Shown here in pieces: positions 13,264 through 64,000 of a DNA stretch of 64,000 nt. Source of the stretch: Leptonemataceae bacterium (GTDB taxonomy: Bacteria > Spirochaetota > Leptospiria > Leptospirales > Leptonemataceae); the NCBI GenBank assembly GCA_965227295.1, contig OZ245742.1, forward strand, positions 4,480,001 to 4,544,000, read 5' to 3'. The first letter of the stretch is position 1, and the number at the start of each line of letters is the position of its first letter. The position numbers were made by a program, and so were the translations under genes. The notes under the pieces were generated by a model, which worked only from the letters and a program-made list of their open reading frames with translations, ran no database searches and was not told the DNA's origin.

Positions 13264-13301
13264 ACGTTCGTCCTTCAGCCTTGCTGCGTTTCTAAATTGC
13301 T

Positions 13302-13937: not shown

Positions 13938-13945
13938 GCCGTGGC

Positions 13946-14785
13946 TTACCGTGACAACACCGCTGCGAGGCAAGCGGAAAATGCCGCCTCGATTTCTTCT
14001 ATACTAAAGCGGTTGGGACGATCCGCCTGCGCCCCGTCGTCCGGAGCGCAGAGATCGCGCAACCCGGCACGCAGGCTGTCTTCGACTTCGCTGCGATCGG
14101 CTGCTGCGGAGCGATACGATCGCTCGGGAAGCTCAAACGAGGTGATGCGTGCCGAAATCGCTGCGTCGAGGCGCGCGCGGCAGAGACGCTCGAATGGCGC
14201 GCGGGGTAAGGAGTCCACGGTGCGCACGCCACCGCCGAACTCGCAGAGCCGCTCCAGGAAAGCATAGAACGGCAGATCCGCCATGAGCCGGGCGTAGGCC
14301 TCCGTCATTCCGCCCGGAGCGTCGCCGGGTTCGCCGGCCGATGGGCCGAAGAGTTCCGCAAGCAAGCGCGAGTACGGCGAGCCCTGAAGTTCGTCGCGTT
14401 CTTTGTTCCGGCAGTCGTAGGCCTGGCAAATGGACGTACCGTAAAACGAAAAGTCCTGGGATTTTTCCCGCCCGGTGATCGTCGGATGCACCATGCAGCC
14501 GGTGCGGCGAAAGCCGTTGCCGTCCATTTCGTCATCGAGATATCCGAAGAACGGGCAGACGTAGACTTCCGGATTCGAACGGGGGATCTTACGCTCCAGG
14601 GATTCGCGTTCCGTGCGATACGCAACGTAGCTTTCATTGAGGGAGAAATCCGCGCGCACGCTGCGAAAGGCCCGCTCACGATCCGCGAGCAGTTGGGTGC
14701 GCTCGGCCGGATTCAACTGCAAATTAAAAATACCGCAGCAGGCTCCGCACGAAACCCCGCGACGCTGGCAGGCGGATTCGGTCAC
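13946..14785 (-). CDS. Cysteine-rich hypothetical protein (possible Fe-S or Zn binding; start uncertain)
   Basis: SCGACCGIFN, VCPF, GCMVHP, ICQAYDC. Probable GTG start right after the CHAT gene stop. Confidence 0.7.
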   Translation of the reverse strand: MTESACQRRGVSCGACCGIFNLQLNPAERTQLLADRERAFRSVRADFSLNESYVAYRTERESLERKIPRSNPEVYVCPFFGYLDDEMDGNGFRRTGCMVHPTITGREKSQDFSFYGTSICQAYDCRNKERDELQGSPYSRLLAELFGPSAGEPGDAPGGMTEAYARLMADLPFYAFLERLCEFGGGVRTVDSLPRAPFERLCRARLDAAISARITSFELPERSYRSAAADRSEVEDSLRAGLRDLCAPDDGAQADRPNRFSIEEIEAAFSACLAAVLSR

Positions 14786-14786
14786 G

Positions 14787-16664
14787 TTACGTTGCTGCCG
14801 GTCCTGACGTTGCATTGCGACGACCGGCAAGAGAATCGCGCAGTCGCGGATACAACACGCAGCCGGTCTCGGTCTCGTAGCTCATAAAATCGGTCAGGGG
14901 AATGAGAATGCGGCGCGAGCTGTTGTAAAAACAAACCTCGCCGCGATTCTCTTCCATGAGATTCTTCAGTTCCTCGTCCTCGAACTCCGCCGGCAAAAGA
15001 TGAATGGGGCGCGGGTTCATGCCGTTGAGCATGAGCGCGCCGAAGCCGCGATGTTCGAGGTACAATAACTGGTAGCGACCCAGGGGCGCCAGATCGAACA
15101 ACAGGTTGTCGATGAAGTAATGGTACGTAACGAAGTACGAACCGGCGATGTCCTCGTCCAGTTCCGTGCGATCGTACTCGTCCCGCGCATCCAGGAACTT
15201 TTCGATGGTATCCCGGTGGAGGTACAGGCTCTCCACCATGCGACCCGGCGAGAGTTCCATGTGCAACGAACGCAACCGCGCCGTGGCCTTGTAGACGGCG
15301 TCGACGTACTCCCGGAACTTCAGCGGGATGTCCGGATCCGGGAACTCGGCCTTAATGTTCAAGTAGCGACAGTTACCGAAAATGAGCGCTCCGGTGAGCT
15401 GCATGGTCACTTCGAAAAGACGCCACAGGGCATCCATGCGCAGCGTAATGTCCAGTTCCTCTTTATCGCTGAGGTTCTGTAGCGCCGAGTAGGCCTCGGC
15501 GATGGGCTGCGGATACGACTCCACCACGCTCCGGGCATGCAGCACGTTGCGCGACGCATCGAAGGACCGGCGGTTCCCGGAGCGATAGATGCGCGCCATG
15601 GGATTGCCGTGCAACGCGTAGCGGGCCCAGGTGAGATCGTAGGGTTCGTAGACGCGCCGGGCGTGACGCCGCGCTTCGAACAACGCCTCGCCCACGGAAC
15701 GCTCTTCGAAGATGGTCCGATAAAATTGCAGCGCGAATTCGAACGTGCGCCGGGAGTCGGCAATCTCCCAGTTCGTGCCGAGGTAATTGCAGATGCCCGC
15801 GCGCAAGAACGCGCCGGCGAGATCGTTGAAGACACCGCCGGTGGTCCCGCTGTGTTCGATCTCCTCGTCCAGTTCCGGATCCGTGGCGAAGCTGAGGCAA
15901 CTATTCGCGAAGACCAGGTCCGGCACGACGCCGGCCTTTTCGATTTCCCGGGCGCGCAGGACCTTGCCGTCGGCGAGCAGCCAGCCGCTCTCCTGTTGGT
16001 CGCGGCTGTAGTGCATGTGCCCGGCGTAGTGAATGATGTCGCGATCCTTGATGGCGTTCAGCAGATTGAGCTTCGAGATGCGCCGGCCGGACATGAACTG
16101 CACGTCCAGGCGATCCGGGCTGACCTCGGCCGTCAGCGATTCGAACAGTCCCTCGCCTTCCTGGCGGGCCCACTCCAGGTCCTCGGTGGGATCGGCAATG
16201 ATCAACATGCGCAGTCGATCCCGTTCGGTGCGACTGGTCTCGCGCCAGTAACCGTCAATGTTCTTGCCGAGATAAAAGGCATCCGCGAGGAAGCAGCGGC
16301 CGGTGTGCAGTACTTCCCAGGGGATGTTCCGCAGGCGATGGTCCACATGCAAAAACAGAAAGGCGTTTTGTGCGCTGCGCAACCGATCCTGGATCTGTTC
16401 GGGAAAGAACTGCAAAAAGAAGGTCTCGCCGATGCGCCGCAGTTCCCGGGAAACCTCCACGGCACCGGCCGCATCCCCGCCCTGGCCGGCCTGCATGCTG
16501 TTCGAGATGTGGCTGAGCCGCTCCGTTTCCTGGAGGAATTCGAGGATCAGGTCGTCATCCACGCGCGTCTGGAGATGCGTATCCCGGGAAGGCAGACGCC
16601 CCTGCACGATGTTGAACACGTTCGTCGAGTTCACGCGGTCGATGATGATGCTGAAGAAATCCAT
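14787..16664 (-). CDS. CHAT domain (caspase-like) protein
   Basis: IPWEVLH, MLIIADP, His in IHYAGH, Cys in FANSC, LAGAFLRAG, FYR..SVGEAL..AR, YALHGNP. Confidence 0.9.
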   Translation of the reverse strand: MDFFSIIIDRVNSTNVFNIVQGRLPSRDTHLQTRVDDDLILEFLQETERLSHISNSMQAGQGGDAAGAVEVSRELRRIGETFFLQFFPEQIQDRLRSAQNAFLFLHVDHRLRNIPWEVLHTGRCFLADAFYLGKNIDGYWRETSRTERDRLRMLIIADPTEDLEWARQEGEGLFESLTAEVSPDRLDVQFMSGRRISKLNLLNAIKDRDIIHYAGHMHYSRDQQESGWLLADGKVLRAREIEKAGVVPDLVFANSCLSFATDPELDEEIEHSGTTGGVFNDLAGAFLRAGICNYLGTNWEIADSRRTFEFALQFYRTIFEERSVGEALFEARRHARRVYEPYDLTWARYALHGNPMARIYRSGNRRSFDASRNVLHARSVVESYPQPIAEAYSALQNLSDKEELDITLRMDALWRLFEVTMQLTGALIFGNCRYLNIKAEFPDPDIPLKFREYVDAVYKATARLRSLHMELSPGRMVESLYLHRDTIEKFLDARDEYDRTELDEDIAGSYFVTYHYFIDNLLFDLAPLGRYQLLYLEHRGFGALMLNGMNPRPIHLLPAEFEDEELKNLMEENRGEVCFYNSSRRILIPLTDFMSYETETGCVLYPRLRDSLAGRRNATSGPAAT

Positions 16665-16770
16665 ACGACGGTTCCGGTCTGATTCCCGGAAAATGATTGC
16701 ACGATGACTACCGGCCGGTAGTATTACTGGCCGCTTTTGGCGGTGCACGTCCATCAATTTTCTCAAGTAA

Positions 16771-17049
16771 ATGATGCAGCGCAAATACAGGATCCACGGG
16801 CGAGTACAGGGTGTCGGCTTCCGTCATTTTGTGATGACCCGGGCTCGCTCCCTGCGCCTGCGCGGATTTGTCCGCAATCTGGCCGACGGCAGCGTCGAAT
16901 GTCTGGCCGCCGGAACCACCGAACAACTGAGCGAGCTGGAACGCCATTTGCGCCAGGGCCCGCCGCACAGTCGCGTGGACGGCGTGGATTCCGAAGAAAG
17001 CGCCTGGCCGGAGTCACAGCTCGCCGCCGAATTCGAGGTCGAGCCGTGA
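16771..17049 (+). CDS. acyP: Acylphosphatase
   Basis: GRVQGVGFR, GFVRNLADGSVE, GPPHSRV. Confidence 0.95.
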   Translation: MMQRKYRIHGRVQGVGFRHFVMTRARSLRLRGFVRNLADGSVECLAAGTTEQLSELERHLRQGPPHSRVDGVDSEESAWPESQLAAEFEVEP

Positions 17050-17089: not shown

Positions 17090-19702
17090 ATGAGCGCGTC
17101 CCCGCTGACGATCTATCTGGAATTGGGCATCGGCCTGCTTCTGTTGTGGCCGGGTCTGCACTCCTTCTTTACGGAATCTTCAAATCGCATTCGGCGAAAC
17201 TTCCTGCTGGCGACGATTCTTTTGAGCGCCGGCTTTACCGTGGACGCGGCCGGCCGCCTCGTGCTGTATCAGAAGTTCTTTCTCAGCGACCTGCCCTTTC
17301 GCGCCGCCGAGTTGCTCTTCCTGGCAGCCGCGCTGATGCTCGTGTATCTCGGCGGCATCTTTCCACGCCGCTCGGGTCCCTGGGAAAACATCGGGCGCCG
17401 GGCACGTCTGTTCGTACTATTGGTAGTACTGGGATTGCTCGGCTTCGCCCTGGGGGCCCTGGCGCTCCTGGACATTCATTACGTCTACGATCGCATTTAC
17501 GATCCGCTGCCCGGCACGTACTACGGCGCCTACGGTCCGGTGTATTATCTCATACGATTGTACATGCCGCTCTGTCTCGGCCTGGCCGCTTATGAACAAC
17601 GCCGCTTCCTGACCTATCACCGCCGGGACCCGCGGCGCGTCCACGCGCGGTACTTTATTACCGCCCTGGGGGCCCTGGGCTCCGCTTCGCTGCTGTCCAC
17701 GCTGCTTCTGCTGTACGGTTACGAGAACGAATTCATGGCGTTGCAGGCCGGCATGGTCCTCGCGTTCGCCCTCTTTCTGCGAAACATGCTGGAGAACCTG
17801 AGCATCAGCTACCGGGCGAACCTCATTCGCAACGGCGCCCTCTTCACCGTCTATGCACTGTCGCTGTTGCCCCTGCTCTACGTCATCGACGGCTTGCTGG
17901 ACTGGATGGAACCGAACCAGTCCTTCCTCCCGGCCTTCGTCCTCTGCGCGCTGTTCGTCGGTTTCTACGCCGCGGCGCGATTCCTGGGCCCGCGCATCTC
18001 GCGTTTGATCTTTAAGGAGCAGGCGCGCATGGACGAGAGCCTCGCGGACTTCAACAATCGCGTCCTGCACCTGGGAGATTCCGGCGAAAGTGACATTCCG
18101 CGACAGTTAACACAATTCGTGGACGATCTCTACGGACCGCGCCTGTTTGCACTGTACTTCCGCGACATCGAAGACGGCGCGGGCGAAGATGAGGGCATCC
18201 CCGGGGAACGCCTGCCGGAATCCGGCGGAGGCCTGATTCAAAACAAATCCTGCACACGCGCCACGGATCTGCAGTCGATCCCTCCCACCGTTTTTCCGGA
18301 CGAACTCGTGGCCTTTCTCAAACGCCGGCGTCAGGCGGCGACCGCCGTGGCGGACGGCCAGGCGGGTGTGGACACGGACGGCGGCCTGATCGCCGACCTG
18401 CTCGTCCGCGCCGAGACCGAGGGCGATGCGGCTTCCGGCGAGGCCCTGACCGCGCTCGCGGCCCGGGGGGCCGAATTGATCCTGCCCTTCTTCGACGACT
18501 CCCGCTCCGGCCACACCGCGGGACCGGAAGCCATCCTGATTATGGGCATCCTGGCGAACGGGCGTCCCTTAGATTACTCTGATTATCACTTACTGTGGTT
18601 GCTGCGAGCGCCGACGCTCCTCGCCTTGAAGAACCAGGCGCTGCTTCAGGATACCACCCGACTCAAAGAAAAACTCGAAGAAGAGAACCGCCGCATCACC
18701 CGGCGCCTGAACCAGAGCCTGGCGTCCCTGTCCGGGGGCGCCAACGGTCGCGGCGAAAGACCGGAGCCGGCCTTCGTCTTCCAACCGGGCGGCAACCTGG
18801 CACAGATCCTGAGCCAGGCCGAGATGTTCGCCGGCCAGGATTCTCCGGTACTCATCACCGGTGAGACCGGTACGGGCAAAGGCGAAATCGCGCGCATGAT
18901 TCACGGTCTGTCGAAACGCGGCGGACGTTTTGTAACGGTCAACTGCTCGGCCATCCCGGCGGACCTCATTGAAAACGAACTGTTCGGCCACGTGAAGGGG
19001 GCGTACACCGGCGCCGGCGAGGCCCAGGACGGCCTGGTCGCCCGGGCGGCGGACGGCACGCTCTTCCTCGACGAGATCGGCGAGCTGTCGCCGGAGGGCC
19101 AGACGAAACTGCTGCGCCTGGTCCAGGAAGGCGCCTACGAACCCATCGGTTCGAGCGAGACACTTCATTCCACCGCGCGTTTCGTCTTCGCCACGAACCG
19201 CGACCTGGAAGAGGACGTGCAGGCCGGCCGCTTTCGCTCGGATCTGTATTTTCGGATCAGCACGTTCGAACTACGCGTACCGCCGCTCCGGGAACGGCGC
19301 GAGGACATTCCGTTGTTGATCGATCACTTTTTAGGCCTGGCGGCCCGTAACTTTCATCGCGAGCAACTTACCATGACCGACCGGGCGCGGGAGTTGCTCA
19401 CGAAATACGCCTGGCCGGGCAACGTACGGGAACTGGAAAATCTGCTGCTGCGTACGGCGGTGCTGAGCGACCGCAGCGAACTGGACGAGGATCAGTTGCC
19501 GGTCATGTTTCGGGACGAGCTGGATTTTAATCGGAAGAAGCAGCAGCTGGAACGCATGGCCGAAGAGCAGAGCCGCCTGGAGAAGGAGTTATTGATGGAA
19601 GCGTTGCAGAAATCCGGCGGCAATCAACGCGCCGCGGCGAAGATCTTGAATATTTCGAGGGGGTCGTTGCAGTATCGGTTGAAGCAACACGGGTTGAGCT
19701 GA
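17090..19702 (+). CDS. Membrane-anchored sigma-54-dependent transcriptional activator
   Basis: ~8 N-terminal TM segments; AAA+ GETGTGK, GAYTGA, LFLDEIGE, WPGNVREL; Fis-type HTH. Confidence 0.9.
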   Translation: MSASPLTIYLELGIGLLLLWPGLHSFFTESSNRIRRNFLLATILLSAGFTVDAAGRLVLYQKFFLSDLPFRAAELLFLAAALMLVYLGGIFPRRSGPWENIGRRARLFVLLVVLGLLGFALGALALLDIHYVYDRIYDPLPGTYYGAYGPVYYLIRLYMPLCLGLAAYEQRRFLTYHRRDPRRVHARYFITALGALGSASLLSTLLLLYGYENEFMALQAGMVLAFALFLRNMLENLSISYRANLIRNGALFTVYALSLLPLLYVIDGLLDWMEPNQSFLPAFVLCALFVGFYAAARFLGPRISRLIFKEQARMDESLADFNNRVLHLGDSGESDIPRQLTQFVDDLYGPRLFALYFRDIEDGAGEDEGIPGERLPESGGGLIQNKSCTRATDLQSIPPTVFPDELVAFLKRRRQAATAVADGQAGVDTDGGLIADLLVRAETEGDAASGEALTALAARGAELILPFFDDSRSGHTAGPEAILIMGILANGRPLDYSDYHLLWLLRAPTLLALKNQALLQDTTRLKEKLEEENRRITRRLNQSLASLSGGANGRGERPEPAFVFQPGGNLAQILSQAEMFAGQDSPVLITGETGTGKGEIARMIHGLSKRGGRFVTVNCSAIPADLIENELFGHVKGAYTGAGEAQDGLVARAADGTLFLDEIGELSPEGQTKLLRLVQEGAYEPIGSSETLHSTARFVFATNRDLEEDVQAGRFRSDLYFRISTFELRVPPLRERREDIPLLIDHFLGLAARNFHREQLTMTDRARELLTKYAWPGNVRELENLLLRTAVLSDRSELDEDQLPVMFRDELDFNRKKQQLERMAEEQSRLEKELLMEALQKSGGNQRAAAKILNISRGSLQYRLKQHGLS

Positions 19703-53765: not shown

Positions 53766-55300
53766 GGCATGCCTCCCGGGGAACCGCTCGCGGCACAGGC
53801 CGCAAAGGCATCTTCCAGCTCGCGCCGATCCGAGAAATCGACGCGCTGCCTGCCGAAGATCTGGTAGTCCTCATGACCCTTGCCGGCAACCAACACTGCC
53901 GCCGGCCGTTCCGCCGAAGCCAGGATCATCTCTACCGAGCGCCGGATTGCTTCGCGGCGATCGCCGATCTCCAGGATACGCTCCTCTTCCGGCGCGCCGC
54001 CGGTCCGCGTGGATTGGTAGGAACTCCTGCGGGCGCCGGCCAGGATCTCCGCGCGAATGGAAGCGGGGTCCTCGGTCCGCGGATTATCGTCGCAGACAAT
54101 GACCGTGTCCGCCAGACGCCCGGCAATTTCCCCCATGGGCGCGCGCTTGCTGCGATCGCGGTCGCCGCCGCAACCGAAGACGCAAACGAGATAACGCAGG
54201 CCGAGGCCGCGGGCTTCACGCAGGGCGTTGTCGAGGGCGTCCGGGGTATGCGCGTAGTCGACAATGCCGTAGACATCGGATCGCTCCGATGAGCCGGACG
54301 GAACCGACGGCGGATCCACGCGTTCGAAACGACCGGGCACCGGCGCATGCCGGGCCAGCAGTTTCAGAGCGCGCTCGGTTTCGCCCGCGGCAACGCCCGC
54401 CGTAATTGCCAGGGACGCGTTCATGCGATTGAAGGCCGTGGGCGCCGGCAGCCGTTCGACGAACGGCGCCGGCACTGCTTCAATCTTCGCGGACGCATCC
54501 AGGGCGCGCATTTCGCTCACCAGGCGCCGGCCCGCGTCGTTGTCGACGGCGACGGTCATGGTGCCGCCGGAAGCGAGAGTCATTTCGAAAAGGCGGCGCT
54601 TGGCAAGATAGTAGGCCTCCATGTCGCCGTGATAGTCCAGATGGTCCGGCGTAAGATTCGTAAAGATTGCATGCGCGAAGGTTAAGCCTTCGAGGCGCCC
54701 CAGGGCCAGGGCCTCGGACGAAACCTCGAGGGCGACGCGGTTGACCCCGGCGTCACGCATCTCCGCGAGCAGGGCGTTCAACTGCGGGACCCGCGGCGTG
54801 GTATAACCGGTCTTGCGGTTGTGCCTGACGCCATTCGCATCCACCCACTCGACGCCGACGGTACCGATACATCCGGCGCTGTAGCCGAGGCCCTGCCAGA
54901 TTTCAAACAACATGCGGGTCACGGTGGTTTTGCCGTTGGTCCCGGTAACTCCGAACAAGACCAGTGCTTGCGAGGGCGAATCGTACAACGCGTCGGCGAG
55001 CGCGCCCTGGATTGCTAAGATGTTTTCAGTGACGATTAAGAGCGGTTGGCCGGTGTATGCCGGGGGCCGGTCCTCCGGGCGCAGGAGCACGGCCGTACAA
55101 TCGCTCCGCAATACGGCTTCCAGGTAGGTCCGGCCCTGGTCCGTGGCAACGAAGATGGTGCCGGGGCCGGCCTCCCGCGAGTCGTCGGTGAGCGCGATGA
55201 TGTCGAGGTCCGCGGCCGGCGGGGATTGCCCCGGATCGAGAAGATAACGACCGGCCGGGGCCGGGATCTTATTCAGCAGCGTGAGGAGTTTGCGTTTCAA
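53762..55300 (-). CDS. murE: UDP-MurNAc-dipeptide--diaminopimelate ligase
   Basis: TGTNGKT, DHLDYH, DYAHTPD, DNPR (DAP-type), AGKGHE. Confidence 0.96.
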   Translation of the reverse strand: MKRKLLTLLNKIPAPAGRYLLDPGQSPPAADLDIIALTDDSREAGPGTIFVATDQGRTYLEAVLRSDCTAVLLRPEDRPPAYTGQPLLIVTENILAIQGALADALYDSPSQALVLFGVTGTNGKTTVTRMLFEIWQGLGYSAGCIGTVGVEWVDANGVRHNRKTGYTTPRVPQLNALLAEMRDAGVNRVALEVSSEALALGRLEGLTFAHAIFTNLTPDHLDYHGDMEAYYLAKRRLFEMTLASGGTMTVAVDNDAGRRLVSEMRALDASAKIEAVPAPFVERLPAPTAFNRMNASLAITAGVAAGETERALKLLARHAPVPGRFERVDPPSVPSGSSERSDVYGIVDYAHTPDALDNALREARGLGLRYLVCVFGCGGDRDRSKRAPMGEIAGRLADTVIVCDDNPRTEDPASIRAEILAGARRSSYQSTRTGGAPEEERILEIGDRREAIRRSVEMILASAERPAAVLVAGKGHEDYQIFGRQRVDFSDRRELEDAFAACAASGSPGGMP

Positions 55301-55634
55301 GCGAGGCGCCCGTTTCGTTTAATACGCTTTCGGGCAGACGGATTCTGACAATTTTATTTTTCTCGAGGAGCGGCAGGGTTTCGTAGGTCTTCCAGCGCAG
55401 CGGGTCCTCGCCGGCCTGGAGGGCGAGATCAAACAATGCGCTTTTCAGGGCGCGATTGCGTTTCAGGAGCTCGTCTTTGCGCAATGCGGCCGAGCGCAGG
55501 TCCCGGTTGATGGCCGCCATCTCCACATTCAAATGCAGATAGACCAGGATCGCGAGGAAGATCGGCGCCGCGAGGGCGACAATGCGCAGCATATCACCGG
55601 TCTGGCGGAGAAGTTCCCGGAAAATGGAAATCAT
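55269..55634 (-). CDS. FtsL-like small TM/coiled-coil protein
   Basis: One TM followed by a coiled coil; located between rsmH and murE. Confidence 0.55.
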   Translation of the reverse strand: MISIFRELLRQTGDMLRIVALAAPIFLAILVYLHLNVEMAAINRDLRSAALRKDELLKRNRALKSALFDLALQAGEDPLRWKTYETLPLLEKNKIVRIRLPESVLNETGASLETQTPHAAE

Positions 55635-55643
55635 GCTGTATGA

Positions 55644-56651
55644 TTATCGGTCAGTGGGCGCGCGTTCCAGACACCGGAGCTTCGCGCTGCGGGCGGCGGG
55701 GTTGCGCCCCGTCTCGGCGTCACCGGGGGCCAGGGGCTTGCGGGTGATGATGCGAAACCCGGCCTCGGCGGCCCGTCGCTGATGGGCGGGTACGCCGATC
55801 TCCCGGAACGCCTCCTTGACCAGGCGATCTTCCAGTGAATGAAACGAGATCACGGCCAGGCGCCCGCCCGGAGCCAGACGGGGCGGAATCTCCCGGAGCG
55901 CGCTTTCGATGGCGCCGAACTCATCGTTTACCGCGATGCGCAGGGCCTGAAAGACCCGCGTGGACGGATGAATCCGGCCCCCGCGATCTCCGCCGGCGTC
56001 TTTGCCGGCCTTCCCGGTTTTGCCGCGTTTCGCCTGGCGCCGGGTCTGGGCCCTGCCGGCTCCCGCCGTTGCCTGGCGAACCAGATCGGCCAGTTCTCGC
56101 GCCCCGGCAATCGGCCGGTTTTCGGCAATGACCCGGGCGATGCGGCCGGAGTACGGTTCTTCGCCGTATTGCTGGAAGATGCGCTGGAGTTCGTGCTGAT
56201 CGAGGCGGTTCACCAGATCGGCGGCGCTGTCCTCGAGTTCGGGGCTCAGGCGCATGTCCAGAACGTCGTCGCCGTAAGAGAAGCCCCGCCCGGCCCCGCG
56301 AAAGTGAAACATGGATACGCCGAGATCCAGCAGCACGAAGTCGGCCTGGAGCCCGCGCTCGTCGAGGATGGCCGGCAGCTCGCGGAAATTCGCGCGCTGG
56401 AAATCCACCCGGTCGGCCAGGCCCTGCCCCGTGATCCGCTGCCGGGCCCGCTCGAGCATCTCCGGATCGCGGTCCAGGCCGAGAACCCGCACGCCGGGAA
56501 ATTCCTGAAGCATCATGAGGCTGTGCCCCCCGTCGCCCAGGGTCCCGTCGACGTAATTTGTAGGAGTTCCTACATTTTTAGAGAGCACGGGCCGCGCCAG
56601 GTCCAGGATTTCGGCCGGGAGCACGGGTTCATGGTATTCGCCAGGTGCCAC
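55644..56651 (-). CDS. rsmH: 16S rRNA m4C1402 methyltransferase
   Basis: [47 protein letters not shown]. Confidence 0.96.
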
Positions 56652-56759
56652 GATGTTAGCCTGTGGAAAGCGGATCAGGCGGCGAGTTTTTTAATGGACA
56701 GGGGCCCGGCCGATACGGGACATAAGAAGCCCTCCTGGGAGGGTGTAGCGCAATTTTTT

Positions 56760-57587
56760 ATGAGCACTCTCGAATCACAGATCCATCCCGAGTATCAATA
56801 CCTGCACTTACTCAAGCGTATCCTGGAAACCGGGGAAGACCGCGGAGACCGTACCGGTGTCGGCACGCGGAGCATCTTCGGTGCGAACATGCGTTTCGAT
56901 TTGCGCACGGACTTTCCTCTGCTGACGACAAAGGCCGTCCACTGGAAGTCCATCGTCCACGAACTCCTGTGGTTTCTACGCGGCGATACGAACACCCGCT
57001 ACCTTACCGAGAACGGCGTAACGATCTGGAACGAATGGGCCGATGCCGACGGCGAGCTGGGGCCGGTCTACGGCGCACAGTGGCGTAAGTGGCGCGGTGC
57101 CGACGGCGAAAGCATCGATCAAATCGCGCAGCTCGTGCGGAGCCTGCGGGAAAATCCCATGTCGCGACGGCATATTCTTTCGGCCTGGAACGTCGGTGAG
57201 ATTTCCCACATGGCGCTGCCGCCGTGCCATTGCTTCGTTCAATTCTATGTGAGCGCCGACGGCCGGCTCTCGTGCCAGTTGTATCAGCGCAGCGTGGACG
57301 TGTTCCTGGGGCTGCCGTTCAACATCGCGTCGTACTCGCTGTTAACGCTGATGATGGCGCAGATCACGGGGCTTCTGCCCGGCGAGTTTCTGTTTTGCGG
57401 CGGGGACGTGCACATCTATCAAAATCATTTTGATCAGGTACGCACCCAGCTGGAACGTGAGCCGTTGCCGTTTCCGCGTGTCACGCTGAACCCGGACGTC
57501 ACGAACATCGACGACTTTCGTTTTGAAGATTTTCAGCTCGTCGATTACCAGAGCCACGCGCGCATTAAGGCGCCCATCGCGGTCTGA
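56760..57587 (+). CDS. thyA: Thymidylate synthase
   Basis: DRTGVGT, PLLTTK, LGPVYG, MALPPCH, QRSVD, PFN, HIYQNH. Confidence 0.97.
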
Positions 57588-57604
57588 ACGGTTTGCACTG
57601 AGCC

Positions 57605-58171
57605 ATGTCCATCGATCAAAGCGGCGCGATTCCCGGAGACCACTTCGAATTTGTCGAGGCGGCCGGTATGGTCAAAGCGGACCGGGACCTGTCGTTGACG
57701 CTCATCCTCGCGCAATCGTTGAACGGTGTGATCGGCCGGGACGGCGATTTGCCCTGGCGCATTCCGGAAGACCTCGCCATGTTCAAACAGGCCACCATGG
57801 GCGGCACGCTGATCATGGGCCGGCGAACCTTCGATTCGATCAACCGCGTCCTGCCCGGCCGCACGATGATCGTAATATCATCTCAGGTAAAGCTAAGACT
57901 CCCCGACGGCGTCGCCCACGCCCGCACGCCCCTCGGTGCCCTGGAGCTGGCCCCGCGGGAAAAGCCGGTCTTCGTCATCGGCGGGGCGCGGGTCTATGAT
58001 CACTTCCTCGACGCCGCCGATGAAATCCTGGTCACCCTGGTGAAGGACCTGGTCCCCGGGGACACGCACTTCGACACTTTCGAACGCTGTTCGCCGACGG
58101 ACTGGGAAATTGTGGAGCGTTCCAGTTTGAATGATACGGCCGAACTCCTGCAGCTACGGCGCCGTTCCTGA
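57605..58171 (+). CDS. folA: Dihydrofolate reductase
   Basis: NGVIG..LPW..EDL..FK, IMGRRTF, LPGR, IGGA, GDTHF; adjacent to thyA. Confidence 0.9.
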   Translation: MSIDQSGAIPGDHFEFVEAAGMVKADRDLSLTLILAQSLNGVIGRDGDLPWRIPEDLAMFKQATMGGTLIMGRRTFDSINRVLPGRTMIVISSQVKLRLPDGVAHARTPLGALELAPREKPVFVIGGARVYDHFLDAADEILVTLVKDLVPGDTHFDTFERCSPTDWEIVERSSLNDTAELLQLRRRS

Positions 58172-58260
58172 CCGCACGGCCGCAATCAAACAAACCGTGC
58201 GTTGCCTTCTAATTGAAATAAGTTGTTTACATAGCTTTACATTTCGTATCTCTACGCTGT

Positions 58261-59316
58261 ATGATTCATGCGCGTATCGCCGGCATCGGCGCCGAGATTC
58301 CGCCGCGACGGCTCTCCAACGAAGAGTGGGAACGCATGACGGACACATCCGCCGAATGGCTGGAAAAGAACGTCGGCATTCGCACTCGCAGCCGCATCGG
58401 CGAAGACCAGAGCCTGGCGGACCTGGGCTCCGCCGCCGCCCGGCGCGCCCTGGACATGGCCGGCCTGGACGCGGCGGATCTGGACTACATCCTGTGCGCC
58501 ACGAACTCCCAGGACGATATTTTTCCCTCGACAGCATCAAAAATTCAGCAGGCCCTGGGTGCCGAAAGCGCCACCTCCTCGGACCTGCAGGCCGGCTGCA
58601 CCGGCTGGCTCTACGCCATGCAACTGGGCTGCGCCCTGGTGCGCGGCGGCGAGGCCCGGCGCGTGCTGGTGATCGGCGTGGAATCCCTCATTCGTTCGCT
58701 GTATCTTTACGATCGTGACAGCGCCCTGTTCGGCGACGGCGCTGGCGCGGCCGTGATCACCGCCGAGGACGCGGACGCCTTCAGTGCTCGCGCTAACGGC
58801 CACGCACAAGAAGTCAGCATGCCGATCTTTGCGACGAACACGGTGCCGTCCTTCGCGTTGCATCATCCTACGTACCATCACGAAGAACACAACGCCGTGG
58901 AACTGTATCTGGAAGGCCGGGACATGGCTCAGGCCCCTCGCGCCCGACCGAAGATGGACGGCAAGGCATCTATGAAACTCGCCATCAACGGCACGCTGGA
59001 CGTGGTTACGCGGCTCTTTCAGACCGCGCAGGAACGATACGGCCTCTCCCGCGAGGATGTCGACGTGTTCATGCCGCACCAAACCAACGTGCATCTGGTG
59101 AAGAAGATGTGCGAGACCCTCGGTTACAATTTCGAAGACATTCCGTTTATTCTGGATAAGTACGGCTGCATCAGCACCGCCGCAATGCCCACCGGGCTCT
59201 GGGAGCACATGCAGGCCGGCAAACTGAAGCGCGGCGACCTGGTCCTGTGTGCCGGCTACGGCGCCGGCTGGACCTGCGGGGCCATGCTCTTTCGCTGGGA
59301 TCCCGCGCAGAACTAA
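58261..59316 (+). CDS. Ketoacyl-ACP synthase III (FabH-like) with non-canonical third catalytic residue
   Basis: AGCTG (Cys), LFGDGAGA, PHQTN (His), but YGCIS where FabH has YGNTS. Confidence 0.85.
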   Translation: MIHARIAGIGAEIPPRRLSNEEWERMTDTSAEWLEKNVGIRTRSRIGEDQSLADLGSAAARRALDMAGLDAADLDYILCATNSQDDIFPSTASKIQQALGAESATSSDLQAGCTGWLYAMQLGCALVRGGEARRVLVIGVESLIRSLYLYDRDSALFGDGAGAAVITAEDADAFSARANGHAQEVSMPIFATNTVPSFALHHPTYHHEEHNAVELYLEGRDMAQAPRARPKMDGKASMKLAINGTLDVVTRLFQTAQERYGLSREDVDVFMPHQTNVHLVKKMCETLGYNFEDIPFILDKYGCISTAAMPTGLWEHMQAGKLKRGDLVLCAGYGAGWTCGAMLFRWDPAQN

Positions 59317-59408
59317 AGACGCATTCGCACGGCCGTTTTCCGGTTGGCTCCTGTCGCGTATTTGGGGAGATGGTTGTTCCGCCGTGTCCCCGGATGCGGC
59401 GAAACTCT

Positions 59409-59495
<87 letters not shown>

Positions 59496-59536
59496 AGAAG
59501 TAAACGGAATCGAACACCCTGACATTTGCGGGGTGT

Positions 59537-59584
59537 GCGGTGGTAAGCTCGCGGCGGCGCGCTGCGCCGCGAGCTTACCACCGC
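59537..59584. repeat. Perfect 20-bp inverted repeat, 8-nt loop
   Basis: GCGGTGGTAAGCTCGCGGCG-GCGCGCTG-CGCCGCGAGCTTACCACCGC. Confidence 0.9.
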
Positions 59585-61341
59585 TCTTCCAGCCCCCGCG
59601 CGGTTTCGTGAGTGCCAGATAGATGCCTTCGTCCGCCAGGAAGGCATACGGCTCTTGCCAGTCGAAAATGACCTCGTCGCCGTCCACGTAGATCGCGCGC
59701 ACCATGTTTCGCAGAAGTTTCGCTTTCTCCGCAGTGGTCCGCGCCGCCAGATACTTTTCCGGAATCGTCCGCAGTTCTTCAATGTATCGCAGGATGGTGT
59801 TGTTGATCTCGAAGTCTTCCGCGCGCAGGCTCTGGCCTTTTTTCTCCAGCGTCTTGATTTCATCCTGCATTTCGCGGATGGTTTCCATGATCTGCCGCGC
59901 GGCGGCTGGTTCGCTGGCCGCGTATTCTCTGTATAACCGCCGGATCTGCTGATCCAGGCTTTCGCACTTCAACCGGATATACTTCTGGTCCGATTTGAAA
60001 TTCGACGCTTGCTGAGTCATCGCCCCCTCGAAGAGGCGGCCGAGACGTTCGGCGTAGGCTCCGGTAAATTGAAGCGTAGCCACGGCGCCGTCGATCGCTT
60101 CGATAAGACGGGGTTCTGAGATATAGCGGGGGCGGATTTCGTGGGCGCAACGGTGTTTGTAGTATACGTACGATCCCCGGCCGCTTTTGCCCTTTTGGTG
60201 GTCTGCTGTGAAGAGATTACGGTCATCTTCGCAGTGAGCGCAACGGATTAGACGGGTGAAATGTGCCTGGCGACGGTTTTTTTTGAGCCCCACGGCCTGG
60301 GTTGCGATACGCTTTTTTCTTGCCAGCCAGCGGGCTTTGTCGTAGTAAATTTGTGGTTCCAAGGCCAGCGGGTGCACATTTTGACCATCGGCGTCATAAT
60401 GGGAGCTGTAAACTTTCCCGCGCCAGATGAATTCTCCGTGGTATTCATGGCGCTCTGTTAAGAGTTTGTATATATTGCCTTTGGTCCACGCCTTGCCGGA
60501 CTGGTTCTTGAGGCCGATATCGTTCAGGTGAGCAACGAACTCGGGGAGGGTATAATTGCTGGAATCAAAATTATCGAAGATGTAACGAAGATCATATTCA
60601 GAACGTGGGTCGATCTCGTAGAGTTTTTTCTGGCGGTTATAGAGATAACCCCAAGCTCCATGACCGGGCTTTACACGCCACGAGAGCTTCTTTTGTTGGC
60701 CTTCTTGAATGCGCCAGCCTAAGTTGTCCGTCTCATGCTTGCCGATGACGCCCTGCACAAGGTACGACATTACGATGGAGGGATGAGTGTTTTCGTCGAG
60801 AGTAATGCCTAACGCATAAAAAACAATGACGATTCCTGAGCGGCGTAGTTCATCGATTCGATTAATGTCCGGCAAATTCCGGGCCGCTCGAGTAGCATCC
60901 TTAAAGTAAATCCGATCGCCGGCACAAGATAAGTGTTTGCGCACTGTAGCATAAATTGAAACCACGGACGCTGCTCTTTAGATGCGCTCTCGATGAACTG
61001 AAAGTTGTGGACGACTTCGTAACCATCACGCTTCGCTTGAGCCATACCATGTTCATTCTGGTATGCGAGACTGGTGCCGTCCTCTTGAGATGTGCTGGAC
61101 ACTCGATCTACAGTGAATGCTTTTCGAGATATAGTACGGCCAGATCTGCGCCTCAGTAATTCAACAATTGCGTTCTTCTCATTCTGCGTCATGAAGAATT
61201 CTGTGAAATCCTCCATCTTAAGCGCAAGCGAAATTCTCTTAAACGCAATCAAGGCCGTACCCTATTTGGATTACATCGCCTACTTAGAACACCAGTTTTA
61301 CTACAGCACAAGCCCCGCATTTTTTGCGCCAAAGATTCTTC

Positions 61342-62571
61342 ATGACTGACATTATAGATCGAGACGCGAGCAAAACCTCCAAAGGGTATAGACTGCAAAA
61401 ACTACGCGCGGTCGAACTAATGTTAGACAGCCTCGCCTCATCGGAAACCGCCTATGCATATGCCAGCATAGAAATCGAAGGTGATGTCCTTATCGCAGAA
61501 GCGTCCCAACGCGGGCTCAAAGAGTATTCAGAGGAAAACAAGAACTATTCCAAGTCATCTTCATTCACCCTTTCTAGCGACGAAGTAAAAAAGTCCATCG
61601 TCATTTTTTTGGACATATACTTCGCCAAACACCAAAGCCCGGAGCTCAACTTTGGATTTTACACCACAAACGGAATTGCCTCCGAAAAACAGACCAAATC
61701 TTTGAGCGAGATTGGGGTGACATTAGGCGGAGACGCCCTTTTAGAATCTCTTGTCAATGCAACCTTCAGTGATACGCAGCTTGAAAAAATAATCAAGATC
61801 GTCCTCCACACCTATAAGGCCGAGTACAAAAACAGGCCTGGTAATATCCGCGAAATTGAGAGCTGGAGCACTGCTCGGTGGCGATCTTTCTTTTCTCAGA
61901 TCCGCTGGCACTTTGGGAGCGAAGACGAAATTCAACTCATTAGCCGTATAGACAAAAAAATCCGCGAGTGCAAACACTACACAACAAACCACAGCGGAAA
62001 AGAGGATCTCATCCGTGCCGCCATAATCGAACTCTTCGATGAACGACAAAGCAATAAAACACCGACAGCACGCTTTGTGCACGGCTCTGACATTGCCTTG
62101 AAGTTTTTCCATGTTGCGGCAGGAGAAATCAAACGCACGGATCCTGTATTCAAGCTCTGGCAAGAGCTACCTCCTCCAGATGACAAGCGCAACATAAAGG
62201 ATAAGCTTCTGGGAATATCGCCGAGCCTCGATCCCAAACGGATCAAGCTATACGCTGTGGATATTGCAACGGGAGCTCTCGAACAGGAGGAATTCGCTGG
62301 TGACAGGCATTTATTGGCATTAAAGTTCCGCATTCTCAAAACTTGCCAAGAACGACTCCTCCAACTTGCCCCGCTAATCCATGCCTATTCCCCACAATCT
62401 AATCCGGAACAGGTATGCGACTGGATATCTGACCTCCAGATAGCAGCCCAGGAGACTGTTGCCGACGTCAGCCGAGCATACGCCTACCCTCTCGAAACCG
62501 AGAGCTTTATCAGGTCCCTAGTTTTAGAATTATTCGACTCTTGCTACCTACATTTTGACAATGACCCCTGA
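61342..62571 (+). CDS. Lamassu/ABC-3C effector: Cap4-like PD-(D/E)xK nuclease + C-terminal domain (LmuA-like)
   Basis: RDASKTSKGYRLQ..EIEGDV..EENKNY; C-terminal RNIKDKL..LFDSCYLHF; first gene of a coupled triad. Confidence 0.7.
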   Translation: MTDIIDRDASKTSKGYRLQKLRAVELMLDSLASSETAYAYASIEIEGDVLIAEASQRGLKEYSEENKNYSKSSSFTLSSDEVKKSIVIFLDIYFAKHQSPELNFGFYTTNGIASEKQTKSLSEIGVTLGGDALLESLVNATFSDTQLEKIIKIVLHTYKAEYKNRPGNIREIESWSTARWRSFFSQIRWHFGSEDEIQLISRIDKKIRECKHYTTNHSGKEDLIRAAIIELFDERQSNKTPTARFVHGSDIALKFFHVAAGEIKRTDPVFKLWQELPPPDDKRNIKDKLLGISPSLDPKRIKLYAVDIATGALEQEEFAGDRHLLALKFRILKTCQERLLQLAPLIHAYSPQSNPEQVCDWISDLQIAAQETVADVSRAYAYPLETESFIRSLVLELFDSCYLHFDNDP

Positions 62572-63100
62572 ATTAAATAAGATAAAACGAGCCATCATGT
62601 TTCTGCAACGGGAGGATTACTACTTCCTTGCATACAACATCCTTATAATTTTAAATGAACTCAATTGTGTCGAAGGAAAGAGGACCTTCCGGGACCATCG
62701 CAAACTCAGCTTCATAATAGAATTCACATCCAAAGGAAGCCTTGTGGAAATCTTACAGAGGGGGCAATCGAACGGGTCCATAAATCTCAGTGACCGTGAT
62801 AGATTATCACGCAGCTACTCTGTCGGATTGACCAGGATGAACGAGGTGCTAAGAATCACTCTCTTTCTTGCTCACAACGGCATCCTAACTGCGACCAAGC
62901 AAAGAGATGGAACATTTAATTTGAGACTCAATCCCGAGAAGCTACCTTCCGGGTTTCTTCGCTCCGAAGAATTTGCTTATGAGATCTCAAATATCCAATC
63001 TTTTCGGCGCCAAACCAACCGCCTATCAAACCTACTTGCTCGCACCTTTCTGGAACGCACTTATTCAGACAATGGCATCATGATATGGGAAGACTACTGA
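62561..63100 (+). CDS. ABC-3C middle component (LmuC-like)
   Basis: ~179 aa ORF overlapping both the effector stop and the ATPase start; assignment mainly by position. Confidence 0.6.
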   Translation: MTPELNKIKRAIMFLQREDYYFLAYNILIILNELNCVEGKRTFRDHRKLSFIIEFTSKGSLVEILQRGQSNGSINLSDRDRLSRSYSVGLTRMNEVLRITLFLAHNGILTATKQRDGTFNLRLNPEKLPSGFLRSEEFAYEISNIQSFRRQTNRLSNLLARTFLERTYSDNGIMIWEDY

Positions 63101-64000
63101 TTGAAAAGCTTAAATACTCTGGCGACTCTTTCGAATATGAATCGCCGACACTTGGACCTGGGATAAATATCCTCGAAGGGGCGAACGCTACGGGAAAGAC
63201 TACTTTCACGAATCTCATATACTATGGACTCGGCGGCCATGTAGAAGAATTCCGCGCGAATGCAAAAGAACGACATGCCGAAATAACCGGAGATAAGAAC
63301 AACTTCGTCGACCTGTTCATCCGAATCAATGAAACGCCATACCAACTTCGTCGTTACATCGGAGATCCGAACATAGGCATCACCCACGAAACAATCACAA
63401 TCACTCGCACTTTGGACCGAAGAGAGTCGAGCGAAACGTTCTCCGACTGGCTACTTGACAAGCTTGGATTCGAAATTTTTGAGATTTTTCAAGGTTCTCA
63501 CAATTGGAGGATCAACTTTACGGACCTCGCTCGCCTAATCTACCATGACCAGAACACTGGCAACGTACGAAGCATATTCAAAGCTCCAGACACATCGTTC
63601 TTCTTGTCCGACTCTGCCAGCACGAGGAAGATAATATTTGAAGTTCTTACAGGAAAGACGTTTAACGATTACTACTCCACTCTTGGCAAGACAAGGCGGG
63701 CCGACCAACAGCGACAGGTGACAAAGGAGACTCTTCGGCGATTTATTGAGATAGCCGCGACACTACACTCTGAGAATCAACCCAAGAACAGCGACTTCAT
63801 TGAAGCCGCGTTACGCGAAAAACAGACTCAGCACGAGAAGTTAGAAGAATCACGACGAGCCCTTCAATCCAACGCACCCCAAGCCGGGGCAGGACTGCGT
63901 CAGCGCATCTCTGAGAAGACGAGTGAATTGACAGCCCAGCAACATAAACGTGTTGAGTTTAACTCCAAGAGATCCAGACAAATAGGGGAAGTTGTCAAAC
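63085..64000 (+). CDS. SMC/Rad50-like ABC ATPase (LmuB-like), truncated by window end
   Basis: Manual translation MGRLLIEKLKYSG..GINILEGANATGKTTF (Walker A)..INFTDLARLIYHDQ (Q-loop), then coiled coil. Open to 64000; absent from the ORF track. Confidence 0.88.
   Translation, partial: MGRLLIEKLKYSGDSFEYESPTLGPGINILEGANATGKTTFTNLIYYGLGGHVEEFRANAKERHAEITGDKNNFVDLFIRINETPYQLRRYIGDPNIGITHETITITRTLDRRESSETFSDWLLDKLGFEIFEIFQGSHNWRINFTDLARLIYHDQNTGNVRSIFKAPDTSFFLSDSASTRKIIFEVLTGKTFNDYYSTLGKTRRADQQRQVTKETLRRFIEIAATLHSENQPKNSDFIEAALREKQTQHEKLEESRRALQSNAPQAGAGLRQRISEKTSELTAQQHKRVEFNSKRSRQIGEVVK

What the first reader, a model, noticed from the sequence alone, without database searches (positions are those of the whole stretch)
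61342..64000. Lamassu/ABC-three-component-like antiphage/antiplasmid system with a divergent nuclease effector
Seen: three overlapping, translationally coupled lower-GC genes as the first cargo of a tRNA island. They are a 409 aa protein with DAS..SKGYRLQ/E..GD/EENK motifs, a 179 aa protein, and an SMC-like ATPase (GANATGKT, YHDQ, coiled coil) missed by the ORF track. Known: Lamassu systems pair an SMC-like sensor (LmuB), a small LmuC and a variable effector (LmuA, often a Cap4-like nuclease). Inference: this is such a system. The ExK-type active site (rather than QxK) and the large middle component suggest a divergent subfamily, little studied in spirochaetes. This is the best candidate for a novel system in the window.
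Basis: partly seen in the sequence, partly recalled or inferred. Interest (0 to 1): 0.8.

Follow-up and report, generated by a model that had tools for sequence, protein, structure and literature searches.

The report
Ordinary short Lamassu defence operon
This is a three-gene Lamassu anti-phage/anti-plasmid system (nuclease effector, small adaptor, SMC-like sensor) on a horizontally acquired island beside a tRNA gene; existing defence-gene models already recognise it, so it is a new member of a known kind and not a new system.

Summary
The three overlapping, low-GC genes are real. They are lmuA (61342-62571, 409 aa), lmuC (62561-63100, 179 aa) and lmuB (63085 onward; it runs off the window and is 637 aa in the whole genome).

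PADLOC models hit all three. LmuB scores E 2.7e-53 over its full length, LmuA E 2.3e-19 over its full length, and LmuC only weakly (E 0.002). All 14 related loci examined, from four phyla, keep the same A-C-B triad.

An AlphaFold model of LmuA (pLDDT 95) matches solved Salmonella and Vibrio LmuA over its whole length (Z 18.4). Its N-domain matches Cap4/DUF4297 nucleases (Z 13-16). The LmuC model is closest to solved LmuC (Z 8.5). LmuB has Walker A, a Q-loop, an invariant Cys-rich hook, and the short-Lamassu Walker B (LLIIDT).

- E versus Q before the catalytic Lys varies within the family (66 vs 28 of 100).
- LmuC is of normal size.
- Existing models already cover the subtype.

Side observations: the cassette and the 5' part of a serine recombinase gene lie between perfect 623-nt inverted repeats, and a 41-gene tRNA array follows. 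Interest is low.

The parts
59409..59495 (+). tRNA-Ser(cga), the left border of the island. Its last 6 nt are the outer end of the left inverted-repeat arm.
   Evidence: ARAGORN; sequence
59313..61252 (-). Large serine recombinase gene. In the assembly it is split into two overlapping frames (59313-60965 and 60809-61252). Contigs of runs X1 and X2 carry one extra base near window 60918, which leaves a single open frame of 626-646 aa.
   Evidence: Pfam Resolvase and Recombinase domains; read-laying table 4; frame check
59490..60112 (.). Left arm of a perfect 623-nt inverted repeat (3' part of the recombinase gene). The right arm lies just past lmuB at window-equivalent 65013-65635, outside the window.
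   Evidence: the repeat finder pair I2; own-genome search; contig joint '2113->7013 opposite strands'
61342..62571 (+). lmuA, 409 aa. It has an N-terminal Cap4/DUF4297-like PD-(D/E)xK nuclease domain (about residues 1-265; E44, D48, E64, E65-N66-K67) and an LmuA-type C-terminal domain (about 270-409).
   Evidence: PADLOC PDLC03848 E 2.3e-19; AF2 pLDDT 95.2; Foldseek and VIA matches to solved LmuA, Cap4, Avs3 and HerA-DUF4297; conservation
62561..63100 (+). lmuC, 179 aa, a small winged-helix-containing middle component. It overlaps the lmuA stop by 11 nt.
   Evidence: PADLOC LmuC E 0.0022, with 7 of 15 family members hitting the same model up to E 6e-8; AF2 pLDDT 89.1; the top two fold matches are solved LmuC chains, Z 8.5 and 8.4
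63085..64000 (+). lmuB, N-terminal 305 aa of a 637-aa SMC/Rad50-like ATPase that continues to window-equivalent 64998. Motifs: Walker A G32-T40, Q-loop Q156, Cys hook C338/C341/C352/C354, Walker B L566-T571, D-loop D578.
   Evidence: PADLOC PDLC03859 E 2.7e-53 over the full length; motif conservation in 15 of 15 sequences; Rad50 head hits by profile

Best explanation
A complete short-form (type II, three-gene) Lamassu defence operon, lmuA-lmuC-lmuB, acquired horizontally on an island integrated at tRNA-Ser(cga) beside a large serine recombinase. The mechanism below is inferred from the solved Vibrio cholerae and Salmonella systems and was not shown here. Two LmuB protomers and one LmuC hold one LmuA monomer inactive through its C-terminal domain. 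LmuB and LmuC recognise DNA ends or aberrant replication intermediates of phages and plasmids. ATP turnover by LmuB releases LmuA. Free LmuA tetramerises through its C-terminal domain, which pairs two Cap4-like nuclease domains into an active site. That site cuts DNA non-specifically and aborts the infection. What is shown here is gene identity, fold, conserved catalytic and ATPase motifs, and conserved gene order. What is inferred is complex formation, the trigger and the abortive outcome.
For: PADLOC: the best LmuB hit is PDLC03859, E 2.7e-53, residues 4-623 on profile positions 3-595 of 611. LmuA hits PDLC03848, E 2.3e-19, residues 5-385 on 4-357 of 373. LmuC hits PDLC03873, E 0.0022, and 7 of 15 family members hit that model up to E 6e-8.

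Gene order: all 14 loci found in four phyla have A, C and B adjacent and in the same order. phmmer gives E 1e-47 to 1e-91 for A, 1e-17 to 1e-37 for C and 1e-122 to 1e-152 for B.

LmuA fold: the AF2 model has pLDDT 95.2. It scores Z 18.4 against Salmonella LmuA 9hr5_C (328 residues aligned, model 4-405) and against 9nxx_B. The N-domain scores Z 16.3 against HerA-DUF4297, 15.7 against Avs3 and about 13.8 against Cap4.

Catalytic set: E44 and D48 are invariant, E64 is present in 97 and K67 in 99 of 100 relatives.

LmuC fold: the top two matches are solved LmuC chains, Z 8.5 and 8.4, with 147 and 145 residues aligned out of 171 and 170.

LmuB: Walker A, the Q-loop Gln, four hook cysteines and the Walker B Asp are invariant in 15 of 15 sequences. 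Walker B LLIIDT fits the hhhhD[Q/S/T/E] pattern, and the 637-aa length fits the roughly 600-aa 'short' class of Haudiquet et al. 2025 (PMC12663957, section 5 read).

Island status: low GC, and not found in any of 60 relatives searched.

Mechanism sources: PMC12663957 sections 5 and 12; passages of bioRxiv 2025.03.14.643221; abstract of bioRxiv 2025.06.23.660979.
Against: There are no sequence-level hits to any solved Lamassu protein, even with family profiles. Identity to solved LmuA and LmuC is only 10-13%, so mechanistic transfer rests on fold and architecture. Pfam finds nothing in LmuA or LmuC. Only 3 of 100 relatives touch Cap4_nuclease (best E 0.0023) and 1 of 100 touches an ABC-3C CTD model. 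The LmuC evidence is the weakest: the PADLOC hit covers residues 8-64 only, the Foldseek E-values are 0.035-0.048, and Z 8.5 stands only about 1.4 above unrelated winged-helix proteins. LmuB has a four-Cys CxxC...CxC apex, whereas the V. cholerae reference has no hook, so the dimer geometry may differ. No expression or phenotype data exist.
Confidence: 0.92

Rival explanations
1. The cassette is Lamassu by descent but an inert passenger in this host. It would be silent, or unable to fire, while the surrounding island is being rearranged.
For: The island is heavily rearranged, with perfect inverted duplications of 623 and 1516 nt. The neighbouring recombinase is frameshifted in the assembly. 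No run listed as holding the segment is on record as RNA, which is not evidence either way.
Against: All three frames are intact. Every catalytic and ATPase motif that is conserved in relatives is kept. The translational-coupling overlaps are preserved. The recombinase frameshift is absent from contigs of two runs.
Confidence: 0.06
2. It is a different ABC/SMC-type defence or repair module, such as a PbeC-, PtuA- (Septu) or AriA- (PARIS) type system or an SbcCD-like repair pair, that merely resembles Lamassu.
For: The ATPase also gives weak PADLOC hits to PbeC (E 4.2e-8), AriA and PtuA. By profile, its closest solved sequences are Rad50 heads (E 4.6e-6).
Against: The LmuB models score 20-45 orders of magnitude better and cover the full length. 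The partner genes match LmuA and LmuC models and folds. There is no Mre11/SbcD-like phosphoesterase in the cassette. The triad is fixed in 14 of 14 loci. Rad50 likeness is expected, because Lamassu derives from SbcCD (PMC12663957, section 12).
Confidence: 0.02

Closest known systems
Short / type II Lamassu with Cap4-type LmuA (V. cholerae DdmABC = LmuACB; Salmonella enterica LmuACB; PDB 9nxx, 9ny5, 9uxl, 9hr5, 9hqx)
   Same: It shares the three-gene architecture. LmuA combines a Cap4-like nuclease domain with a C-terminal oligomerisation domain (Z 18.4 over the whole length). LmuC is small, about 175 aa, with the same fold as the best match. LmuB is about 600-640 aa with a non-glutamate Walker B. 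The catalytic Lys is at position 67, against K68 in Salmonella and K57 in Vibrio as given in the papers. That these positions are equivalent is inferred, not aligned residue by residue.
   Different: Identity is only 10-13% and there is no detectable sequence similarity, even profile-to-PDB. The LmuB apex has four invariant Cys (CPYC...CVC), whereas Vc LmuB has no hook (PMC12663957, section 5). Walker B is D-T, against D-Q in the Salmonella system.
Cap4 / DUF4297 nuclease effectors of CBASS, Avs3, HerA-DUF4297 and Hachiman HamA
   Same: The N-terminal 260 residues share the fold (Z 13-16, rmsd 3.2-4.8 A, 194-211 residues aligned). The same N-domain family is also fused to ~1770-aa NACHT/STAND proteins and to a PDC-S60-like protein.
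   Different: It falls below the Pfam Cap4_nuclease threshold. Here it is coupled to an LmuA C-terminal domain, not to a SAVED, STAND or HerA partner.
ABC-three-component (ABC-3C) systems of Krishnan et al. 2020 (name as used in bioRxiv 2025.06.23.660979; Pfam CTD and MComp families)
   Same: This is the same system under another name. The nearest ESM-Atlas clusters are ~400-aa proteins carrying ABC-3C CTD1 or CTD7, with Cap4_nuclease on 13-17% of members in two of them (score 0.97-0.98).
   Different: No Pfam CTD or MComp model reaches E 0.1 on this LmuA or LmuC.

Membership tests
Lamassu (short / type II) | LmuB: an SMC/Rad50-like ABC ATPase of about 600 aa with Walker A, a coiled coil and Walker B hhhhD[Q/S/T/E] | tested here: met
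   PADLOC LmuB PDLC03859, E 2.7e-53, full length. 637 aa. GANATGKT and LLIIDT are conserved in 15 of 15 sequences. The criterion is taken from PMC12663957, section 5.
Lamassu (short / type II) | LmuA: an N-terminal effector domain plus the Lamassu-specific C-terminal domain | tested here: met
   PADLOC LmuA PDLC03848, E 2.3e-19, residues 5-385. Whole-length fold match to solved LmuA, Z 18.4, model residues 4-405.
Lamassu (short / type II) | LmuC: a small middle component encoded in the operon | tested here: met
   179 aa, lying between lmuA and lmuB. PADLOC LmuC E 0.0022 for this protein, and 7 of 15 relatives hit the model up to E 6e-8. The best two fold matches are solved LmuC chains, Z 8.5 and 8.4. 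This is the weakest of the three.
Lamassu (short / type II) | The three genes co-occur as one operon across genomes | tested here: met
   14 of 14 loci found with the LmuA profile have A-C-B adjacent in the same order and on the same strand. The same holds on a Peribacillus plasmid.
Lamassu (short / type II) | Formation of an LmuA1-LmuB2-LmuC1 sequestration complex | not tested
   The complex-prediction job (LmuA + LmuC) was never accepted because the queue was full.
Lamassu (short / type II) | Protection against phage or plasmid that depends on the LmuB ATPase, the LmuA active site and LmuC | not testable with these tools
   This needs plaque and plasmid assays. The criterion comes from Millman et al. 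(bioRxiv 2022.05.11.491447, passages).
Cap4_nuclease (Pfam PF14130 / DUF4297) | A match to the Pfam sequence model at its gathering score | tested here: not met
   No hit at E up to 10 for this protein. 3 of 100 relatives hit, best E 0.0023.
Cap4_nuclease (Pfam PF14130 / DUF4297) | PD-(D/E)xK fold of the Cap4 type with conserved acidic residues and Lys | tested here: met
   Z 13.1-16.3 against Cap4, Avs3, HerA-DUF4297 and HamA. E44 and D48 are present in 100 of 100, E64 in 97 and K67 in 99.
ABC-3C Pfam CTD / MComp families | A match of the LmuA C-terminus to a CTD model and of LmuC to an MComp model | tested here: inconclusive
   None for this locus. 1 of 100 LmuA relatives hits CTD9 (E 3.6e-4). 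Atlas neighbours carry CTD1 or CTD7.

The most novel reading that the evidence does not exclude
The 4.9-kb segment that carries lmuACB and the 5' part of the serine recombinase gene lies between perfect 623-nt inverted copies of the recombinase's own 3' end. The right copy retains an attP-like junction: the same 10-nt core CTCCGCAGAA is found at the tRNA junction and at a third, attR-like junction about 16 kb away. The segment could therefore be a flip-flop module that the recombinase (or RecA) inverts or reshuffles, which would make it a recombinase-linked switch or shuttle for a defence cassette and not a static island. A milder novelty is that this LmuB clade uses an invariant four-Cys apex, which may bind zinc within one protomer instead of forming a Rad50-type shared hook.
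Probability: 0.07. Interest if true: 0.55.

Novelty: new member of a known kind. Interest (0 to 1): 0.2.

Why it matters
It adds one Lamassu operon from a lineage in which none of 60 relatives searched has this effector. It also documents a Lamassu clade that is structurally recognisable but too remote in sequence for Pfam or PDB searches to find. RefSeq annotates this clade as 'hypothetical protein' on plasmids. In the 50%-identity library the LmuA-family profile has 351 matches, some of them partial proteins or fusions that share only the N-terminal domain. That is useful for annotation and as a divergent test case for the sequestration-release-tetramerisation model, but it does not open a new question. 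The context is more unusual than the operon itself: inverted repeats built from the integrase gene, and an accessory array of 41 tRNA genes.

Tried and rejected
- Sequence searches of LmuA, LmuC and LmuB against PDB chains, both single-sequence and as profiles of 7, 100 or 15 sequences, found no Lamassu chain. Only fold comparison made the link.
- Pfam on LmuA and LmuC found nothing, even at E 10. The LmuC family gave only 2 of 15 weak DUF3908 hits.
There is therefore no verdict on binding.
- Expression: no holder listed is on record as RNA.
- Run X3 (same species label, another study) covers only 2 of 30 bins of the stretch, so it says nothing about presence or absence of the island.
- The loose end after the tRNA in X1 was searched in the genome with up to 2 mismatches and gave 0 hits. 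Its origin is unknown.
- Right border of the island: a tblastx of a same-genus region against the genome timed out. The smaller tblastn showed synteny only up to the FabH-like gene left of the tRNA. A blastn of the candidate B' flank against the relative found nothing.
- The recombinase next to the triad in locus L012 is unrelated to the one here (E 0.037), so there is no evidence that recombinase and Lamassu travel as a conserved unit.
- The search of earlier findings returned nothing for this genome.
- I rejected the idea that E65 (ExK) marks a subfamily and the idea that LmuC is unusually large.
Full report
**Observation.** The region holds three + strand ORFs:
- 61342-62571 (409 aa from the ATG; a TTG lies 18 nt upstream).
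- 62561-63100 (179 aa from the ATG; 181 aa from a TTG at 62555).
- 63085 to the window end.

The genes overlap by 11 and 16 nt. GC is 0.42-0.50 across 61000-63999, against 0.57-0.69 across 54000-59749. tRNA-Ser(cga) sits at 59409-59495. It is followed on the - strand by a large serine recombinase gene (Resolvase and Recombinase domains). I fetched the downstream genome. The third ORF is 637 aa there, window-equivalent 63085-64998.

**Identity.** PADLOC-DB models hit all three proteins:
- LmuA hits PDLC03848, E 2.3e-19, residues 5-385 on profile positions 4-357 of 373.
- LmuC hits PDLC03873, E 0.0022, residues 8-64 only.
- Full-length LmuB hits PDLC03859, E 2.7e-53, residues 4-623 on 3-595 of 611, followed by six further LmuB models. 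PbeC is far weaker at E 4.2e-8. On the truncated LmuB, AriA and PtuA score only E 2e-4 to 2e-3.

Pfam finds nothing in LmuA or LmuC, even at E 10, and only sub-threshold AAA_23/SMC_N in LmuB. No solved structure is found by sequence, either with single proteins or with family profiles. The LmuB profile reaches only Rad50 heads (E 4.6e-6).

**Family and co-occurrence.**
- The word-indexed search found six relatives of LmuA at 31-40% identity.
- A profile search of 1.84 billion representatives found 351 proteins at E <= 0.001 and 196 at E <= 1e-30.
- A scan of one genome per species returned 14 loci in Myxococcota, Bacteroidota, Atribacterota and Planctomycetota.
- In all 14 of 14 loci the LmuA relative is followed directly by relatives of this LmuC (E 2e-17 to 1e-37) and this LmuB (E 5e-122 to 1e-152), in the same order and on the same strand.
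- Seven of the 15 LmuC proteins hit PADLOC LmuC PDLC03873 (best E 6e-8), and one hits another LmuC model.
- I passed 54 of 73 flanking ORFs of these loci to Pfam, dropping the shorter ones. The hits were typical defence or mobile neighbours: HsdR (L006, L012), AbiTii (L010), two Fic (L011), a serine recombinase (L012), a pPIWI-associated nuclease (L013), SIR2_2 and HNH (L015), a tyrosine integrase and AbiEii (L016), and a phage portal (L005).
- Nine of 72,556 plasmids encode a relative, all annotated 'hypothetical protein'. On a Peribacillus plasmid the triad lies beside a TnsD-family Tn7-like transposition gene.

**Folds.**
- The AlphaFold2 model of LmuA, built with 100 relatives, has pLDDT 95.2 and pTM 0.88.
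- Foldseek gives 19 PDB matches at E <= 0.001, led by LmuA chains 9nxx_D (E 2.3e-9) and 9hr5_A.
- VIA-align gives Z 18.4 to Salmonella LmuA 9hr5_C (328 residues aligned, model 4-405) and to 9nxx_B. The high rmsd of 14-15 A reflects a different domain orientation.
- The N-domain (about residues 10-260) scores Z 16.3 against HerA-DUF4297 9c1m_G (rmsd 3.4 A), 15.7 against Avs3 8dgc_A, about 13.8 against Cap4 and 13.1 against Hachiman HamA.
- The effector is therefore a Cap4/DUF4297-type PD-(D/E)xK nuclease joined to an LmuA C-terminal domain. The condition 'effector lacks a PD-(D/E)xK fold' is not met.
- In 100 relatives, E44, D48 and E115 are invariant, E64 is present in 97 and K67 in 99. The residue two before the Lys is E in 66 and Q in 28. 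'ExK not QxK' is ordinary variation within the family.
- The catalytic Lys is K68 in Salmonella LmuA (passages of bioRxiv 2025.03.14.643221) and K57 in V. cholerae LmuA (PMC12663957, outline). Its equivalence with K67 here is my inference.
- ESM-Atlas neighbours are ~400-aa proteins with ABC-3C CTD1 or CTD7. Two of those clusters also carry Cap4_nuclease on 13-17% of members, and a further ~363-aa cluster carries Cap4_nuclease alone on 24% (score 0.96-0.98).
- The LmuC model (pLDDT 89.1) has as its two best matches the solved LmuC chains 9ny5_C (Z 8.5, 147 of 171 residues) and 9uxh_D (Z 8.4). Winged-helix proteins follow at Z about 7, covering only about 90 residues. Solved LmuC chains have 170-171 residues, so a 179-aa LmuC is not large.

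**LmuB motifs.** These residues are invariant in 15 of 15 sequences: Walker A (G32, N34, G37, K38, T40), Q156 of YHDQ, four cysteines at the coiled-coil apex (C338-P-x-C341 ... C352-x-C354-G), S538 in a signature-like stretch (YKQASSAV here), D570-T571-P572-E573 (Walker B LLIIDT) and D578. The C-terminal head is thus intact, and the condition 'ATPase lacks signature/Walker B' is not met. Haudiquet et al. 2025 (PMC12663957, section 5 read) define short Lamassu by an LmuB of about 600 aa, Walker B hhhhD[Q/S/T/E] and zero to two CxxC hooks. This LmuB fits.

**Mechanism (inferred).** The solved systems show the following:
- An LmuA1-LmuB2-LmuC1 complex sequesters monomeric LmuA through its C-terminal domain.
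- LmuA release is ATP-dependent.
- A cyclic LmuA tetramer forms, in which two nuclease domains make one cleavage site.
- The outcome is abortive infection.

Sources are PMC12663957 sections 5 and 12, passages of bioRxiv 2025.03.14.643221, the abstract of bioRxiv 2025.06.23.660979 and passages of Millman et al., bioRxiv 2022.05.11.491447. I assign the same mechanism here with about 0.9 confidence for identity and lower confidence for details, because identity to the solved proteins is 10-13%. I could not test complex formation because complex prediction never accepted the job.

**Island context.**
- LmuA was not found in any of 60 relatives searched (2 of the same genus, 34 of the same family, 24 of the same order). 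The genome has one LmuB.
- In a same-genus genome, synteny holds up to the FabH-like gene left of the tRNA and then stops.
- A perfect 623-nt inverted repeat brackets 4,900 nt holding the recombinase 5' part and lmuACB. The arms are L002 1491-2113 (window 59490-60112) and L002 7014-7636 (window-equivalent 65013-65635). The arms are the 3' part of the recombinase gene, and the right arm begins 14 nt after the lmuB stop.
- Contigs of two runs from one study hold the segment (0.99 and 0.93 of sampled words). One 4,961-nt contig equals the unique segment plus about 30 nt of repeat at each end, joined on 'opposite strands'. The repeat structure is therefore in the read graph too. These runs may include the sample the genome came from, so this is not independent support.
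- The same contigs carry one extra base near window 60918. With it, the recombinase is a single open frame of 626-646 aa, against 554 + 150 in the assembly. The frameshift is therefore probably an assembly indel or a variant.
- Three junctions share the 10-nt core CTCCGCAGAA, with flanks arranged like attL (tRNA | recombinase end), an inverted internal attP-like site (flank 'a' | recombinase end) and an attR-like site (flank 'a' | other sequence at L002 17487-17496). This suggests a ~16-kb composite island, but a third partial 'a' copy lies further on. The right border is not settled.

**Verdict.** This is a bona fide short (type II) Lamassu with a Cap4-like nuclease effector. It belongs to a sequence-remote clade that 2023 defence-gene models already cover. 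It is a new member of a known kind, and interest is low.

Noticed in passing
window 59490-60112, and L002 7014-7636 (window-equivalent 65013-65635, outside the window): A perfect 623-nt inverted repeat made of the 3' part of the serine recombinase gene brackets the 4.9-kb segment that holds the recombinase 5' part and lmuACB. It is also seen in the contig graph of runs X1 and X2. Whether the segment inverts is untested, because short contigs cannot tell orientation.
   Followed up: partly
window ~60918 (L002 2919): The serine recombinase is frameshifted in the assembly (ORFs 59313-60965 and 60809-61252). Contigs of X1 and X2 have one extra base here, which gives one open frame of 626-646 aa.
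   Followed up: yes
L002 1491-1500, 7627-7636 (reverse complement) and 17487-17496: The same 10-nt core CTCCGCAGAA lies at three junctions. Their flanks combine like attL, an inverted internal attP-like site and an attR-like site, which suggests a ~16-kb composite island. A third partial copy of flank 'a' lies at G000 4559865-4559943.
   Followed up: partly
L002 9529 to G000 4559530 (G000 4547528-4559530; outside the window): An accessory tRNA array holds 41 of the genome's 86 tRNA genes within 12 kb, in two inverted blocks whose shared parts are 93-99% alike. The other 44 tRNAs elsewhere form a near-complete separate set: Ser(cga) and Pro(cgg) anticodons occur only in this region.
   Followed up: partly
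L002 8000-9515 / 12839-14354, about 14160-15300, and 15458-16771: There is a perfect 1516-nt inverted repeat carrying three small ORFs, one of them DUF6908. A 13-nt tandem repeat is expanded to about 78 copies in one arm, against about 3 in the other. A group II intron reverse transcriptase/maturase ORF is also present.
   Followed up: partly
proteins P0130, P0135, P0129, P0138 (NACHT/AAA), P0122, P0112: The N-terminal ~265 residues of this LmuA family also head ~700-1780-aa NACHT/STAND NTPases and a PDC-S60-like protein. P0112 joins EAD11 and a CarboxypepD_reg domain to the region matching LmuA residues 100-409.
   Followed up: partly
LmuB residues 338-355 (window 64096-64149, outside the window): The coiled-coil apex carries four invariant cysteines (CPYC ... 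CVCG) in 15 of 15 relatives. This might bind zinc within one protomer instead of forming a shared two-plus-two hook.
   Followed up: no
G000:C1:1907220-1907628: A second, partial copy (85-93% identity) of the tRNA-Ser 3' end and of part of the recombinase 3' region lies elsewhere in the genome. It may be a remnant of a related element.
   Followed up: no
L002 1-1495 in run X1: In X1 the left-flank contig has word depth 159, against 76 for the unique island segment. One contig leaves the tRNA 3' end into sequence absent from this genome. This may be a co-occurring strain without the island, but contig depths are not copy numbers.
   Followed up: partly
L023 (NZ_CP085715.1 282099-291301): A Peribacillus asahii plasmid carries the same triad (33% identity to LmuA), with all three genes annotated 'hypothetical protein', directly downstream of a TnsD-family Tn7-like transposition gene.
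   Followed up: no
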